From positions 134,159 through 198,158 of the forward strand of contig CAVTQP010000001.1 of NCBI GenBank assembly GCA_963736925.1: 64,000 nt of DNA, read 5' to 3'. Shown one piece after another: positions 32,011 through 35,450 of this stretch. The DNA is from an uncultured Actinomycetes bacterium. Its GTDB lineage: Bacteria; Actinomycetota; Acidimicrobiia; Acidimicrobiales; CAVTQP01. Numbering within the stretch: position 1 is the stretch's first letter; the number at the start of each line of letters is the position of its first letter. Made by a program: the position numbers and the translations under genes. The notes below the pieces were generated by a model. It saw only the letters and a list, made by a program, of their open reading frames with translations, was not told the origin of the DNA and made no database searches.

Positions 32011-32241
32011 ATGACACCGCTAACCAGACACAGCGAAAATCGCAAAAAGGCTCTGCTGGTTCGTCTGTCCGAGGCAGAGCACAAGCTGGCCTTTCGGGCA
32101 GCTCACGCCAGGGGGTTGTCTCGGTCGGGACTCCTCAGGATGCTTCTTCACCGGCAGGAGCCAGAGATTTCTCAGCAGGAGAAGGAACGCTTAGAAGGAG
32201 AAAGGAATTATAATTGTTTGCTTTTTAGGGACGAGGACTAG
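32011..32241 (+). CDS. ribbon-helix-helix (CopG/MobC-like) protein
   Basis: RKKALLVRLSEAEHKLAFRAAHARGLSRSGLLRMLL shows the RHH pattern. It is divergent from cas1. Its 3' end runs into the AT-shifted tract. Confidence 0.6.
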   Translation: MTPLTRHSENRKKALLVRLSEAEHKLAFRAAHARGLSRSGLLRMLLHRQEPEISQQEKERLEGERNYNCLLFRDED

Positions 32242-35200
32242 GAGAACGAGGATATAAACAGCAATGGATCATTATACTATAACATCTAGGGGGGCTAGAT
32301 GACTGAGATTCAACTATGGGAACAGGTTTGTCTATAGGCGATTTCGATGAGTAGAGCTCGTGCGAGGTACTGATGGCATTGTGGGTATGGCTTTCTGCGA
32401 TATAGTGTATAACACGGAGCGATTGCTACGTTCACGTACGACGCACACTGCAGATCAGCGGAGATTGGACGCTGAGTGGCGAGTACACGGGCTGTGTTGA
32501 AAAGACGAGAAGTGTGGCTAGATGTTCCTCATCTCATAACAGCTGGTGCTGTCGTCCTACGCTGCTCGGCTCGCTTTATGCGGCGTGCGCGATCAACTCT
32601 CTCAGGAGCGACGCTGACCTCCACCACTGGGGGTGACGACTCACCACTAACTGATCTCGGCCACGGCCACTGCCCCTAGGGCGAGCGCTCGATGGCGTGC
32701 GAACGCGCTAGCCGCGATACAGCAGCGCTGCAATGAACGTGCGTGTGCAGAGGGCTTTGCAAGTTATGCACAGAAACGACGACTAGGCGTTTCACGAGCC
32801 AAGCTGACACAACTTAGAACGCCTCTCACACGGATACAGAGAGTCTGACAACGGGATATCTCTGCCGCTGGGGAGCTACGTCGAAGATAGCCTCGGAGTC
32901 TTCGCGAAGTAGATGGCGCTAGGCACTCAGCGAAGATGATGACGCGTACGGGCGAGGCTTATGTTCTCGCGTAGACGGATGGTAGGAGAGCTGCGCGCAG
33001 CAGCGACGACTCCGCATCTACATGAACATTATCTCGCTGCTAGAGTGGAGAGATTGACTGTCTGTCGATCTAGAGACGGTAGACGATGGGCGCTTACATG
33101 GCGACGATACGAGCTTACGTCGCTTGCGACTTCTTTGACTAGTCGGCGTTGGAAGCTTTTGCTGGTGTGTAGATAGAGGGCTTAGAGCTTGAGACAGACT
33201 TGCTACGTTGGACGACATGGCTCGATATGAGGACTTGGACGATTTTGTGCTGTACTTAGAAGCTGAGGAAGAGAGATTAGCTTTGTCGTGTGGCTTGCGA
33301 GGCTTTGAGCGTGGACTTTCATCACGTGGGCTGTAGGTGCATCGACGCTCTCGGTGTACGTGTGAAAGGGCTGCCACTACCAGCTCACGCGTTGGCACAT
33401 GGACGCTGGCATCTAGGGGAACGTGGATGAGCTGACTTGGTGGACGCAAGAGAGCTGTTCTACTCGGGGCTGCTGATGTGTTGGCGTTGACGCTATGAGG
33501 CTCGGTTTTCTGGAGTTTGCATCCTCAATACGCGGCTCGCGGCGCGGACTCGAACGCCTCGCATGGAAGATGAGGAGCTGAGTCGTTGGGGGCTAGACTT
33601 GGGAGGTGCTAGGGTGCGAGAGATGGCCTCCTGATGAACTAGGCTCTATTGCTGTCGCTCTCGCTCATCGGGGTGGAGAGATTCGAAGGACTAACGCCAC
33701 GAATCCTCGACGGCTGACGACTTTGTACAGTGACTGTTCGAGCTTTCACCAGCGAGTTGATGCTCAGGAGCAAACGCGAGCAAGCGTCGCTAACAGATTC
33801 GATCAAACAACTCCTCGTTGTCGACACCGAAACCACCACGGACGAAACTCAACGTCTTCTGTACGAGTCGTCTAGGGCGTGCGATCTTACGAGACAGGAT
33901 AGGCGCAGTGTTGGCAGGAAGATTTTCTTACGCTGACGACTGCTTGAGTACTACTTTGAGGGGTTCGCTGTATTGAAGCAGTATGTCGAGAGTCGCAAGG
34001 CTGAGGCTGAGACATCTGACGCTCGCACGACGATCGGACTCCTTCTATTGTCGGCGTGGCTGGAAAAGGTCTTTTGGCGCTACGCTGACTGCAGATGCGA
34101 GCTACGATTGTCGGCTTCAACTTCTCTTAGACCTTTCTCGTCTGGCTCTGTGTCGGCGATGCGATGGATAGTGGCGATGGCGCTTTCAGCGACGAGTTCA
34201 CTTCCAGCTGTGGGAGGGATGTTCTGGTCGCTGCTATGGATGGAGGCTAGACGTACGCGTCAAGAACATCGACTCTAAGAAGGCGCTCAAGCAACTGACT
34301 AACTCACAGCACGTCAACTCGGTCAGGACAGATCTTTTCGAGGGAGCTTCCTCGATTGCGAACTCTGGTGTTCACTCTCACCAGCTCGTCACATTCGCTC
34401 CGTTCAGCTGGCGAGGCTCTCGAGGCTAAGAGGCTGAAGGTCGACGCTTCAGACACGAGAAGATCACGCCGGAGCACGTGGACTACGCTGAGCTGACGTG
34501 GCGACTGCGACGTCGCTCGCGAAGGACTCTCAGCGAGTTTGCGATGCACTTCTCGACATGTCTCCGGTTCACGCATTTTCTCCGGCTTCTTTGCGAAGGG
34601 GTACCTCGATGCAATGGGCGTCGTTCTCATGTTGGAGCGCTAACTGGACTTCTCAAAGGACATTCTCGGATGGTAGATGTCTGCCTTCTATGGCGGATGC
34701 TCGGAGTGCTGCATTCGACGAGTTCTGATTCTCGTCGTGCTGGTCGACTGTACGAGCATGTATCTCACGGTCGACGCTTTGATGGAGTTGTGGAAGCTGC
34801 TCACTCAGCTGAGATAGAAATCCAGGCGACGAGAGACGTTCAGAAGTAATTGAGGACGTGACGCTGGACGACTGCTTCGACAAGTCAACTGGCTGAAGCT
34901 GGTGGGGATCGCTAAGATTGTGCTCGAGGCTGACTGTCTACTTGTCCGCTCGCAGTACGAGGACGACGCCGCTTACAACATCGGCCTCAACTTCCTAACG
35001 GCGTCGACTCGATAAGGGAAGACGCTGCCTTCTGGTACACGCTGCTCGACTGGTGGCGTCTAAGCCACCGACCGGCAAGGCTCTCAAAGTGGAGCGAGCT
35101 ATCTGGTTCGAGGGCAGAGGAAGATTGCGCGATCTTCGATCGCTACATTTTCGCGGCGAGGTCAAGGTGGACTCTCGGCGAGACGACTTTTTCAGGACGA

Positions 35201-35450
35201 TGGTAGAGCAACGTCAGCAGCTGGAGGACAATCGTTCGCTCGGAAACTTCCTCAAGATCTTTGCTAACGCTGGAAGCTACGGAATCTTTGCCGAACAGGT
35301 CCGCTATGAGCTGGCGAAGGGCGAGCGTGAAACGACGACGATCTACGATCGGCATGAGGAGCGTGGGAAAAGCAAGTTAACAGCTCTCGAAGATCTCGGC
35401 CGCTTCTGTTTTCCACGGTTGCGGCGTGCATCACGGCGCTGCCCGCTTGA
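32170..35450 (+). other. strand-asymmetric hypermutation-like tract (CC-depleted, CTAG/TAG-rich, about 50% GC)
   Basis: My hand counts give about 17 CC vs about 61 GG dinucleotides in 32221-33120, and 2 vs 26 in 33181-33480. I found about 15 CTAG in 32.2-33.7 kb. The flanking DNA is about 65-70% GC with CC at least as frequent as GG. Confidence 0.6.

What the first reader, a model, noticed from the sequence alone, without database searches (positions are those of the whole stretch)
32170..35450. Strand-specific 5'-CC to CT hypermutation-like tract covering the 5' two thirds of the casposon PolB
Seen: GC drops from about 65-70% to about 50%, and the + strand is selectively depleted of CC while GG is retained. 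My hand counts are about 17 CC vs 61 GG in 32221-33120 and 2 vs 26 in 33181-33480. Normal + strand coding DNA in this window, such as pstB, has CC at least as frequent as GG. CTAG, usually rare, occurs about 15 times in 1.45 kb, mostly as NCTAGG/NCTAGA, as expected if CCAG became CTAG. TCAG is not enriched, which points to the 3' C of CC as the target. Expected protein consequences are visible. PolB motif A reads SMYL where SLYP/SMYP is expected (Pro CCN to Leu CTN), and there are in-frame TGA and TAG stops. Inference: the + strand was exposed as ssDNA to a CC-specific cytosine deaminase, with an APOBEC3G-like context. Candidate moments are conjugative transfer or strand-displacement replication. 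Candidate sources are a polymorphic-toxin or defence deaminase. No deaminase gene is present in the window. Editing-type inactivation of a prokaryotic mobile element would be unusual.
Basis: partly seen in the sequence, partly recalled or inferred. Interest (0 to 1): 0.85.

Follow-up and report, generated by a model that had tools for sequence, protein, structure and literature searches.

The report
One-strand CC-to-CT hypermutation in a bacterium
About 3.5 kb of a decayed Cas1-PolB mobile element, and a second 11.6-kb stretch of the same bacterial genome, have lost their cytosines to thymine on one strand only, mainly at CC, which looks like APOBEC3G editing of retroviruses and has not, as far as I could find, been described in a prokaryotic chromosome.

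Summary
In window 32,170-35,450 the + strand has 57 CC against 239 GG (binomial p 1e-27). CTAG is about 4 times enriched and CCAG about 3 times depleted.

A scan of all 12,882 500-bp windows of the genome finds this asymmetry in only two places, both with the same polarity. One is the window tract, about 31,900-35,400 plus a patch at 37,900-38,240. The other is an 11.6-kb tract on contig C3, which also holds roughly 1-kb blocks with almost no C at all.

The direction and context of the change are shown without an unedited copy. Where seven PolB homologues have Pro, the tract has 0 of 22 Pro codons and 11 CTN Leu. Beyond 35,400 it has 18 of 29 Pro codons and no Leu (p 2e-6). Thirteen of 17 inferred C>T sites follow a C. 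Intact homologous elements have CC/GG of 0.98-2.18, so the bias is not native composition.

Best explanation: an ssDNA cytosine deaminase with 5'-CC preference edited the + strand. No enzyme gene was found in the genome, and the source of the ssDNA is unresolved.

No reads and no unedited allele could be obtained, so a technical artefact is not excluded. The PolB also has at least 6 frameshifts and stops that CC>CT does not explain, so editing is not its only lesion.

The parts
30170..31738 (-). Cas1 casposase gene. It is intact (522-aa ORF; database call of 500 aa) and has normal composition, so it lies outside the edited tract.
   Evidence: Pfam Cas_Cas1 E 1.6e-34. Found in the six-frame genome search. 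CC is 50-69 per 500 bp. The nearest relative in the protein database is 43% identical.
31870..32161 (+). Onset zone. It covers the divergent intergenic region and the first part of a still-open 76-aa ORF (32,011-32,241), which has a weak, non-significant NikA/RHH-like match. CC is about half the normal density.
   Evidence: List of surviving CC positions, 100-bp bins, ORF list, NikA-like E 0.06.
32162..35400 (+). Core of the strand-specific CC>CT tract. CC is 0-4 per 100 bp and GG is retained. GC is 0.38-0.60. The tract holds 17 CTAG.
32300..33669 (+). Remains of the small accessory genes that precede PolB in related elements. No frame is open and no homology is left.
   Evidence: Synteny in L099, L101 and L102. 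tblastn with their products finds nothing. Pfam finds nothing.
33670..36730 (+). Family-B DNA polymerase pseudogene of Cas1-PolB elements. It has at least 6 frame changes, at about 34,088, 35,020, 35,430, 35,570, 35,890 and 36,360, and 6 in-frame stops. The first 57% or so lies in the tract.
   Evidence: Homologues P0004-P0010, about 1,040 aa, 36-41% identical over the queried motif-B segment. tblastn frame map. Stops.
34755..34766 (+). Polymerase motif reading S-M-Y-L. Its last codon, CTC, sits on a column where homologues have Pro.
   Evidence: 34,764 CTC under a conserved P.
35395..35415 (+). Right-hand switch point inside PolB. It runs from the last conserved Pro column read as Leu (35,395 CTC) to the first read as Pro (35,413 CCA).
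   Evidence: CC recovers only partly over 35,400-36,000.
37900..38240 (+). Second short patch with the same polarity (CC 0-2 and GG 6-11 per 100 bp, GC 0.46-0.50), separated from the main tract by 1.9 kb of normal composition.

Best explanation
The + strand of this region was once present as single-stranded DNA and was edited by a DNA cytosine deaminase that strongly prefers the 3' C of 5'-CC. The uracils were copied into A before they were repaired, which fixed C>T on the + strand only.

The same process, with the same polarity and context, produced an 11.6-kb tract on contig C3. There, three blocks of about 0.7-1.1 kb lost almost every C. That pattern suggests either saturating exposure or a second, context-independent activity.

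The edited DNA here is the promoter-proximal part of the + strand operon of a decayed Cas1-PolB (casposon-like) element, running from the small genes into the first 57% or so of PolB.

What is shown: the strand asymmetry, its rarity in the genome, the direction C>T, the preceding-C context, and that the bias is not native composition.

What is inferred: that an enzyme did it, that the substrate was ssDNA, and when it happened. Only 2 C in 2,018 bp of the C3 C-free blocks points to little divergence since that event.

What is unresolved: the enzyme, since none is recognisable in the genome, so it may have been a delivered toxin, a lost gene or an unknown family. Also unresolved is why the DNA was single-stranded. 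Candidates are a displaced non-template strand or R-loop downstream of a + strand promoter, a resected or gapped repair intermediate, and DNA entry.
For: - Asymmetry: 57 CC against 239 GG in 32,170-35,450. Only two such tracts occur among 12,882 genome windows, and none has the opposite polarity.
- Direction and context from Pro columns: where PolB homologues have Pro, the tract has 0 of 22 Pro codons and 11 CTN Leu. Downstream it has 18 of 29 Pro codons and 0 Leu. Fisher p is 2e-6 and 1.5e-5.
- Ala codons: GCT in 10 of 15 GCN codons in the tract against 2 of 16 outside.
- Thirteen of 17 inferred C>T sites at conserved columns follow a C.
- CCAG is lost, CTAG is gained and CTGG is unchanged.
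- Within the same gene, C falls by 4.0 points and T rises by 4.6 points. CC falls by 58/kb against CT +39, TC +26 and TT +12.
- Intact homologous elements have CC/GG of 0.98-2.18 and 4.4-8.5% Pro in the N-terminal part. The tract has 0.25 and 0.6%.
- Second tract, reductase: an aldo-keto reductase on the - strand, compared with six paralogues, shows Ala>Thr at 6 of 8 columns and Gly>Asn/Lys at 7 of 8, plus Arg>His, Glu>Lys and Trp>stop. That is complete G>A in its sense strand.
- Second tract, IS-like paralogue: C after C becomes T in 10 of 24 cases, against 10 of 71 after A, G or T.
- Polarity is the same over genes of both orientations on C3.
- The assembly holds no unedited twin of either tract.
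- rpoB is intact in a 1,204-aa frame, so the assembly is not generally error-ridden.
- Bacterial toxin deaminases with varied 5' preferences, and context-independent ssDNA activity, are known (10.1101/2023.06.29.547047; PMC12494967).
Against: - No reads could be examined and no unedited allele exists in any collection searched. The full substitution spectrum and the read support are therefore unknown.
- No DNA deaminase is recognisable in a genome that is 95.8% complete. Only a TadA-like gene and RibD were found, and there was no DddA-like, APOBEC_N or YwqJ hit. The DddA-like search also rang in none of the 14 control genomes, so that blank says little.
- Pro-derived Leu codons are CTC 7, CTT 2 and CTG 2, although CCG is the commonest Pro codon outside the tract. 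Simple CCN>CTN does not explain this (p about 0.004, my own estimate from the counts).
- The tracts are purine-rich for this genome. On C3 the top 3.5-kb window is +4 SD, and the window tract is +1.8 SD. The IS-like paralogue also shows CC>CG and CC>CA changes. C>T is therefore not the whole story.
- At least 6 frameshifts and 4 of 6 stops in PolB do not come from CC>CT.
- The sharp edges of the C-free blocks, one of which appears to fall inside the reductase gene, have no demonstrated cause.
Confidence: 0.6

Rival explanations
1. Technical artefact. The consensus in these two places rests on one or very few molecules or reads that were chemically or enzymatically converted or miscalled. Examples are a conversion-type library, a marked-molecule long-read method, or a basecalling failure on modified DNA. 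The organism's DNA would then not carry the changes.
For: - The C3 blocks look like bisulfite-converted DNA, with 2 C in 2,018 bp and sharp edges.
- The C3 tract lies 11-23 kb from a contig end.
- The genome is a 3-contig draft of a lineage with no close relatives, so coverage may be low.
- Frame changes are frequent in and near both tracts.
- Read support could not be checked.
Against: - Most of both tracts shows CC-specific conversion, not general conversion, which bisulfite or complete enzymatic conversion does not give.
- The window tract is in the middle of a 442-kb contig.
- The assembly has no unconverted twin of either tract.
- Frameshifts and stops also occur in the unedited third of PolB, as expected of a real pseudogene.
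- Motif-linked basecalling errors would be genome-wide and symmetric on both strands (general knowledge).
- rpoB is intact.
Confidence: 0.2
2. In vivo enzymatic editing, but as targeted defence against the mobile element, or editing of incoming foreign ssDNA during conjugation or transformation. The alternative is untargeted editing of whatever ssDNA was exposed.
For: - Both tracts lie in lower-GC, IS-rich or casposon DNA. The unedited part of PolB has GC 0.61, and IS fragments sit at C3:5.8-6.8 kb and 11.2-11.6 kb.
- The C3 tract begins at an IS-like end.
Against: - Cas1 and the last 43% or so of PolB in the same element are untouched, and both tract ends lie inside the element.
- On C3 the right end appears to lie inside a LysR gene and one block edge inside the reductase gene, so tract limits are not insert limits.
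- The edited C3 genes are ordinary metabolic and regulatory genes.
- The second casposon-like locus at C3:2.59 Mb is not edited.
- PolB carries other, unrelated lesions.
Confidence: 0.12
3. Native composition, or slow decay of foreign low-GC DNA, or selection against a CC-containing motif, with no editing event.
For: The element is natively less GC-rich than the host, with third-position G+C of about 0.6-0.7 in the supported PolB codons. The + strand is the purine-richer coding strand.
Against: - Intact homologues have CC/GG of at least 0.98 and normal Pro content.
- Conserved Pro columns, including one in a polymerase motif, read Leu only inside the tract, with a switch within 18 bp.
- The C3 reductase lacks every G-containing codon.
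- Nothing comparable exists in the other 3.2 Mb.
Confidence: 0.03
4. Non-enzymatic damage of one strand, such as UV dipyrimidine photoproducts followed by deamination, or chemical or thermal deamination of ssDNA.
For: UV gives C>T at dipyrimidines, including CC. Heat or chemical deamination of ssDNA could give context-free loss like that in the C3 blocks (general knowledge).
Against: - TC is hardly depleted while CC is. The ratio of TC to its complement GA is 0.73 in the window tract and 0.87 in the CC-depleted parts of the C3 tract, against 0.24 and 0.12 for CC to GG.
- Tandem CC>TT is rare: 1 TTT in 22 Pro columns.
- Chemical deamination has no CC preference.
- Confinement to two tracts, and to one strand over 11.6 kb, is unlike bulk damage.
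Confidence: 0.05

Closest known systems
APOBEC3G hypermutation of retroviral minus-strand cDNA
   Same: The editing is strand-coordinated over kilobases. The target is the 3' C of 5'-CC. The consequences are Pro>Leu in sense genes, or Trp>stop and Gly>Ser/Asn/Lys on the opposite strand. The result is a dead gene in a selfish element.
   Different: The host is a bacterium. The element is a DNA element with no reverse-transcription step. No AID/APOBEC-family gene was found. A second tract hits ordinary genes and contains blocks where every C is lost.
Kataegis: APOBEC3A/B mutation clusters on resected, break-induced-replication or lagging-template ssDNA in yeast and tumours (PMC3628087, PMC3542020)
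   Same: Clusters of same-strand C changes over kilobases are attributed to transient ssDNA. Some C>G and C>A changes occur alongside C>T, and a purine excess and CC>CG/CA changes are seen here too.
   Different: The density here is near saturation, with about 75-90% of CC lost, not one change per few hundred bases. The context is CC, not TC. The two tracts sit on opposite replichores with the same polarity, so a single lagging-strand-template rule does not fit. No switch to G-coordinated changes is seen at either end.
Bacterial polymorphic-toxin DNA deaminases: DddA (PMC7901873), SsdA (PMC12494967) and the wider families (10.1101/2023.06.29.547047)
   Same: These are prokaryotic enzymes that deaminate DNA cytosines and can mutagenise surviving cells. 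SsdA acts on ssDNA without context, like the C-free blocks. The families show diverse 5' preferences.
   Different: DddA is specific for dsDNA and 5'-TC. As I recall the DddA study (PMC7901873; I read only its abstract here), the mutations reported in survivors are scattered, not kb-long one-strand tracts. No such toxin gene was found in this genome.
Repeat-induced point mutation (RIP) in fungi
   Same: Dense C>T transitions inactivate mobile or duplicated DNA and lower its GC.
   Different: RIP needs a duplicated sequence, acts on both strands and prefers CpA. Here there is no second copy, only one strand is hit, and the context is CC.
Non-denaturing bisulfite R-loop footprints, and engineered RNA-polymerase-deaminase hypermutators
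   Same: Both give patches of complete C>T on the displaced non-template strand with sharp edges, or a tract that begins at a promoter and runs downstream. The window tract begins in the divergent promoter region and runs down the + strand operon.
   Different: Those are laboratory procedures. On C3 the recognisable genes lie antisense to the edited strand, so a + sense transcript would have to be assumed.

Membership tests
ssDNA cytosine-deaminase hypermutation footprint (APOBEC3G type) | Changes are confined to one strand over a long tract. | tested here: met
   57 CC against 239 GG. log2 ratio reaches 3.2 against a genome SD of 0.50. No window has the opposite polarity.
ssDNA cytosine-deaminase hypermutation footprint (APOBEC3G type) | The direction is C>T relative to the ancestral sequence. 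| tested here: met
   Conserved Pro columns read Leu in 11 of 22 and Pro in 0 of 22 inside the tract. Outside they read Pro in 18 of 29. The reductase on C3 shows Ala>Thr and Gly>Asn/Lys. This is inferred from distant homologues, not from an unedited allele.
ssDNA cytosine-deaminase hypermutation footprint (APOBEC3G type) | 5'-CC context with the 3' C as target. | tested here: met
   Thirteen of 17 inferred sites follow C. CCN becomes CTN and GCC becomes GCT. In the IS-like paralogue, C>T occurs at 10 of 24 C after C against 10 of 71 after A, G or T.
ssDNA cytosine-deaminase hypermutation footprint (APOBEC3G type) | A DNA deaminase is available in the cell. | tested here: not met
   Only a TadA-like gene and RibD were found. 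There was no DddA-like, APOBEC_N or YwqJ hit, and the motif scan was negative. The genome is 95.8% complete, and the DddA-like search also rang in none of the control genomes, so that blank says little. An enzyme from outside, or of an unknown family, is not excluded.
ssDNA cytosine-deaminase hypermutation footprint (APOBEC3G type) | The changes are present in the organism's DNA, that is, supported by reads. | not testable with these tools
   No sequencing run was listed. Records of the genome itself are withheld.
Casposon (Cas1-PolB self-synthesising transposon) | Cas1-family casposase. | tested here: met
   Pfam Cas_Cas1 E 1.6e-34, intact ORF.
Casposon (Cas1-PolB self-synthesising transposon) | An adjacent family-B DNA polymerase, in the arrangement of related elements. 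| tested here: met
   The PolB pseudogene lies downstream on the opposite strand. The same arrangement, Cas1 (-), small genes (+), PolB (+), is seen in three unrelated metagenome elements.
Casposon (Cas1-PolB self-synthesising transposon) | Terminal inverted repeats and a target-site duplication. | tested here: inconclusive
   No convincing inverted repeat pair flanks 27,500-39,500. The ends were not defined.
DddA-type dsDNA deaminase toxin mutagenesis | 5'-TC context, with both strands hit. | tested here: not met
   TC is little changed and CC is lost. Only one strand is affected.
Fungal-type RIP | A duplicated target, CpA context and both strands. | tested here: not met
   No second copy appears in a C/T-collapsed search of the genome. 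The context is CC and only one strand is hit.
Bisulfite or complete enzymatic conversion artefact | All unmodified C are converted regardless of context. | tested here: not met
   In the window tract, C after A, G or T largely survives: C is 835 against G 1,074, while CC is 64 against GG 267. The feature is met only in the three C3 blocks.

The most novel reading that the evidence does not exclude
A bacterial chromosome carries natural, near-saturating, strand-coordinated CC>CT editing tracts, in effect a prokaryotic counterpart of APOBEC3G hypermutation or kataegis. They would have been made by an unidentified ssDNA deaminase, either a delivered toxin or an unknown defence enzyme. The roughly 1-kb blocks of total conversion would record discrete stretches of ssDNA, such as R-loops or gaps, in vivo.
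Probability: 0.5. Interest if true: 0.88.

Novelty: new variant of a known kind. Interest (0 to 1): 0.78.

Why it matters
Deaminase editing of DNA is a central antiviral and mutagenic process in vertebrates. Bacterial deaminase toxins are known to be mutagenic in the laboratory. My literature searches found no report of a kb-scale, one-strand, context-specific editing scar in a natural prokaryotic genome.

If the tracts are real, three things follow:
- Such enzymes leave heritable scars in wild bacteria and can destroy many genes in one event.
- A simple genome-wide statistic, strand asymmetry of CC against GG together with C-free runs, could be used to survey all prokaryotic genomes for the same scar.
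- A 5'-CC-specific bacterial ssDNA deaminase should exist and could be looked for. Such an enzyme would also interest base-editing work.

If the tracts are an artefact, that is a failure mode of genome assembly worth flagging in a species-representative genome.

Tried and rejected
- Unedited copy in the same genome: a C/T-collapsed BLAST of both tracts against both strands found only self-matches and short IS-like fragments. This also rejects a duplication-triggered, RIP-like process.
- Close relatives: 40 same-order genomes gave nothing beyond short weak DNA matches of 33-281 bp near the element's right end. A genome-contig scan with Cas1 gave nothing. The nearest Cas1 in the protein database is 43% identical. 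A metagenome scan with the phosphoesterase gene flanking the C3 tract gave at best 64% identity. An exact look-up of Cas1 gave nothing.
- Sequencing runs: none was listed, and no RNA holder was listed. No reads were laid.
- Pfam on read-through translations of the window tract gave only a non-significant NikA-like match.
- The small genes of related elements have no detectable counterpart left in the tract.
- A PDB sequence search with the edited reductase gave nothing. A G>A-collapsed tblastn of the whole genome timed out. Both were replaced by an alignment to six paralogues from the same genome.
- A hairpin protecting the island of retained CC at 32,600-32,700 is not supported (z -0.24).
- A single replication-strand rule is rejected. 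dnaA and the skew minimum place the origin at about C1:220-243 kb and the terminus at about C3:1.34 Mb. The + strand is therefore the leading-strand template at the window tract and the lagging-strand template at the C3 tract.
- A weaker G>A signal on the + strand, 15 columns in the tract against 4 outside, is mostly conservative Val>Ile and is not in GG context. I did not count it as editing.
- A third outlier window at C3:2,290,250-2,290,800 is purine-rich without raised T and is a different thing.
- Terminal inverted repeats of the element were not found.
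Full report
**The observation**

There are 17 CC and 63 GG in 32,221-33,120, 2 and 26 in 33,181-33,480, and 57 and 239 over 32,170-35,450. GC there is 0.546, against 0.65-0.67 for the rest of the window.

In 100-bp bins, CC drops from 10-18 to 0-4 between about 31,900 and 35,400. About 80 nt at 32,600-32,700 keep their CC. Recovery is partial over 35,400-36,000. A separate CC-poor patch lies at 37,900-38,240.

CTAG occurs 17 times in the tract, which is 4.8/kb against 1.26/kb elsewhere. CCAG falls from 7.3 to 2.25/kb, while its complement CTGG is unchanged.

**How unusual it is**

I laid out the whole genome, which is 3.22 Mb in 3 contigs at 65% GC. The window is C1:134,159-198,158. 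I scored log2((GG+1)/(CC+1)) in 12,882 windows of 500 bp. The mean is 0.01 and the SD 0.50. The window tract reaches 3.2.

Of the 49 windows above 2.0, 48 lie in two places. One is this tract. The other is a larger tract at C3:11,200-22,800. No window reaches -1.7 in the opposite polarity. The one other outlier, at C3:2,290,250-2,290,800, is purine-rich without raised T and is unrelated.

**The second tract**

C3:11.2-22.8 kb shows the same CC loss on the + strand: 84 CC against 690 GG in 8 kb. It also holds three blocks in which nearly every C is gone. These are 15,982-17,108, 18,983-19,950 and about 21,355-22,070. Two of them together have 2 C in 2,018 bp and 48% T, and their edges are sharp to within a few bases.

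The tract contains an IS-like transposase HTH on the + strand. On the - strand it holds a SnoaL-like fragment, an aldo-keto reductase and the C-terminal half of a LysR regulator. The reductase lies inside a C-free block.

Aligned to six paralogues from the same genome, the reductase shows Ala>Thr at 6 of 8 conserved columns and Gly>Asn/Lys at 7 of 8. It also shows Arg>His, Glu>Lys, Cys>Tyr and Trp>stop. That is complete G>A in its sense strand. Its N-terminal 50 or so codons still contain G, so the block edge appears to fall inside the gene.

**What lies in the window**

- An intact Cas1 gene at 30,170-31,738 on the - strand (Pfam E 1.6e-34).
- A divergent + strand operon next to it: a still-open 76-aa ORF at 32,011-32,241, about 1.4 kb with no open frame, and a family-B polymerase pseudogene at about 33,670-36,730.

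PolB was mapped with seven homologues of about 1,040 aa, found by their match to its unedited motif-B region. It needs at least six frame changes and has six in-frame stops, and these are spread over both the edited and the unedited parts.

Three unrelated metagenome elements show the same arrangement of Cas1 (-), small genes (+) and PolB (+). This is therefore a decayed member of a Cas1-PolB (casposon-like) family. Its terminal repeats were not found.

**Direction and context of the changes**

No unedited copy exists (see below), so I used conserved protein columns.

| Columns where most homologues have Pro | Pro codons | Leu (CTN) codons | Other |
|---|---|---|---|
| Inside the tract (22 columns) | 0 | 11 (CTC 7, CTT 2, CTG 2) | TTT 1, TCN 2, other 8 |
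| From 35,401 on (29 columns) | 18 | 0 | 11 |

Fisher p is 2e-6 for Pro and 1.5e-5 for Leu. The switch lies between 35,395 (CTC) and 35,413 (CCA).

Ala is GCT in 10 of 15 GCN codons inside the tract against 2 of 16 outside.

Within the same gene, the edited part differs from the unedited part as follows: C -4.0 points, T +4.6 points, CC -58/kb, CT +39, TC +26 and TT +12.

In the C3 tract, a 345-bp IS-like paralogue gives the one direct DNA comparison. C after C became T in 10 of 24 cases and another base in 5. C after A, G or T became T in 10 of 71 cases.

**Not native composition**

The PolB coding strands of the three intact elements have CC/GG of 0.99, 1.05 and 2.18. The seven homologous proteins have 4.4-8.5% Pro in their N-terminal 57%. 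The window has 0.25 and 0.6% inside the tract, and 0.86 and 7.9% outside it.

**What does not fit a simple story**

- Pro-derived Leu codons are mostly CTC, although CCG is the commonest Pro codon outside the tract.
- Only 2 of 6 in-frame stops follow a C.
- The tracts are purine-rich for this genome. On C3 the top 3.5-kb window is +4 SD, and the window tract is +1.8 SD. The paralogue alignment also shows CC>CG and CC>CA changes. Some transversions may therefore accompany the transitions, as when abasic sites are bypassed. The genome has three UDG-family genes.
- PolB is broken by frameshifts in its unedited part as well, so it decayed independently of the editing.

**Source of the single-stranded DNA**

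dnaA at C1:242.7 kb and the cumulative GC skew place the origin at about C1:220-243 kb and the terminus at about C3:1.34 Mb. The + strand is therefore the leading-strand template at the window tract and the lagging-strand template at the C3 tract. One replication-strand rule cannot explain both.

On C3 the polarity ignores gene orientation. Simple sense-transcription exposure does not explain that tract, although a + sense read-through transcript from the IS-like end cannot be excluded.

In the window, the tract starts in the divergent promoter region and runs down the operon, as exposure of the non-template strand would predict. Tract ends fall inside genes: PolB here, and apparently LysR and the reductase on C3. 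The tracts are therefore not simply pre-edited inserts.

**The enzyme**

A motif scan of all ORFs and six-frame family searches found only a TadA-like gene (C1:336 kb) and RibD (C3:1.47 Mb). There was no DddA-like, APOBEC_N or YwqJ-type domain, though the DddA-like search also rang in none of the control genomes. The enzyme is unidentified.

Known bacterial toxin deaminases include DddA, which is specific for dsDNA and 5'-TC (PMC7901873), and SsdA, which acts on ssDNA without context (PMC12494967). A wider survey found diverse 5' preferences (10.1101/2023.06.29.547047). A CC-preferring bacterial ssDNA deaminase is therefore plausible but is not demonstrated here.

**Limits**

The lineage has no close relative among the genomes searched, and weak evidence suggests Actinomycetota. 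Cas1 is unique in the protein database, with its nearest relative 43% identical. Scans of genome and metagenome collections gave nothing close. No sequencing run was listed.

I could therefore neither tabulate a full spectrum against an unedited allele nor check read support. A technical artefact remains possible. I rate it about 0.2, for these reasons:

- The conversion is CC-specific over most of both tracts.
- The window tract is in the middle of a contig.
- No unconverted twin is assembled.
- rpoB is intact.
- The pseudogene lesions extend beyond the edited part.

**Verdict**

A one-strand CC>CT deaminase-type footprint is the best explanation, with confidence about 0.6. It is not specific to the casposon, it is not the only lesion of PolB, and its enzyme, its timing and the origin of the ssDNA remain open.

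Noticed in passing
G000:C3:11,200-22,800 (L002:6,200-17,800): A second and larger + strand C-loss tract. It holds three blocks of about 0.7-1.1 kb with almost no C (T about 50%). It destroys an aldo-keto reductase, a SnoaL-like gene and half of a LysR gene.
   Followed up: yes
window 37,900-38,240: A short patch with the same CC-poor, GG-retained polarity, separated from the main tract by 1.9 kb of normal sequence. Its content is unknown.
   Followed up: partly
G000:C3:2,591,000-2,598,000 (L004, L005, L008) and C3:2,560,748-2,560,999 (L007): A second Cas1-PolB locus with a different PolB (about 30% identical), split into frames of 644 and 226 aa, and a Cas1 in a 581-aa frame. A third Cas1 fragment has an in-frame TAG. 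Neither locus shows the CC/GG asymmetry.
   Followed up: partly
window 25,690-26,397 (+): An SRAP (SOS-response associated peptidase, YedK/HMCES-like) gene, Pfam E 1.9e-80, lies about 5.5 kb from the edited tract. Proteins of this family shield abasic sites in ssDNA (general knowledge). The proximity may be chance.
   Followed up: no
G000:C3:2,290,250-2,290,800: A 550-bp purine-rich stretch (G 34-40%, A 20-27%, T not raised) is the only other strong CC/GG outlier in the genome. It is not a C>T tract.
   Followed up: partly
window 29,568-29,626: Three or four tandem copies of an 18-nt unit (TGTGGTGGTCGAACTCGA-like) lie inside a - strand ORF just left of Cas1.
   Followed up: no
L102 and L103, 1-2,417 and 11,443-15,135: One related Cas1-PolB element is flanked by CBASS-like genes (SMODS, ThiF, JAB) on one side. 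On the other side are a DNA methylase, an HATPase and an Mrr/helicase gene. The element therefore sits in, or carries, a defence island.
   Followed up: no
window 30,170-31,738 against 35,400-36,730: Cas1 has host-like GC (0.65-0.70), while the unedited part of PolB has GC 0.61. Cas1 is intact while PolB is dead, which may mean that Cas1 is retained under selection after the element decayed.
   Followed up: no
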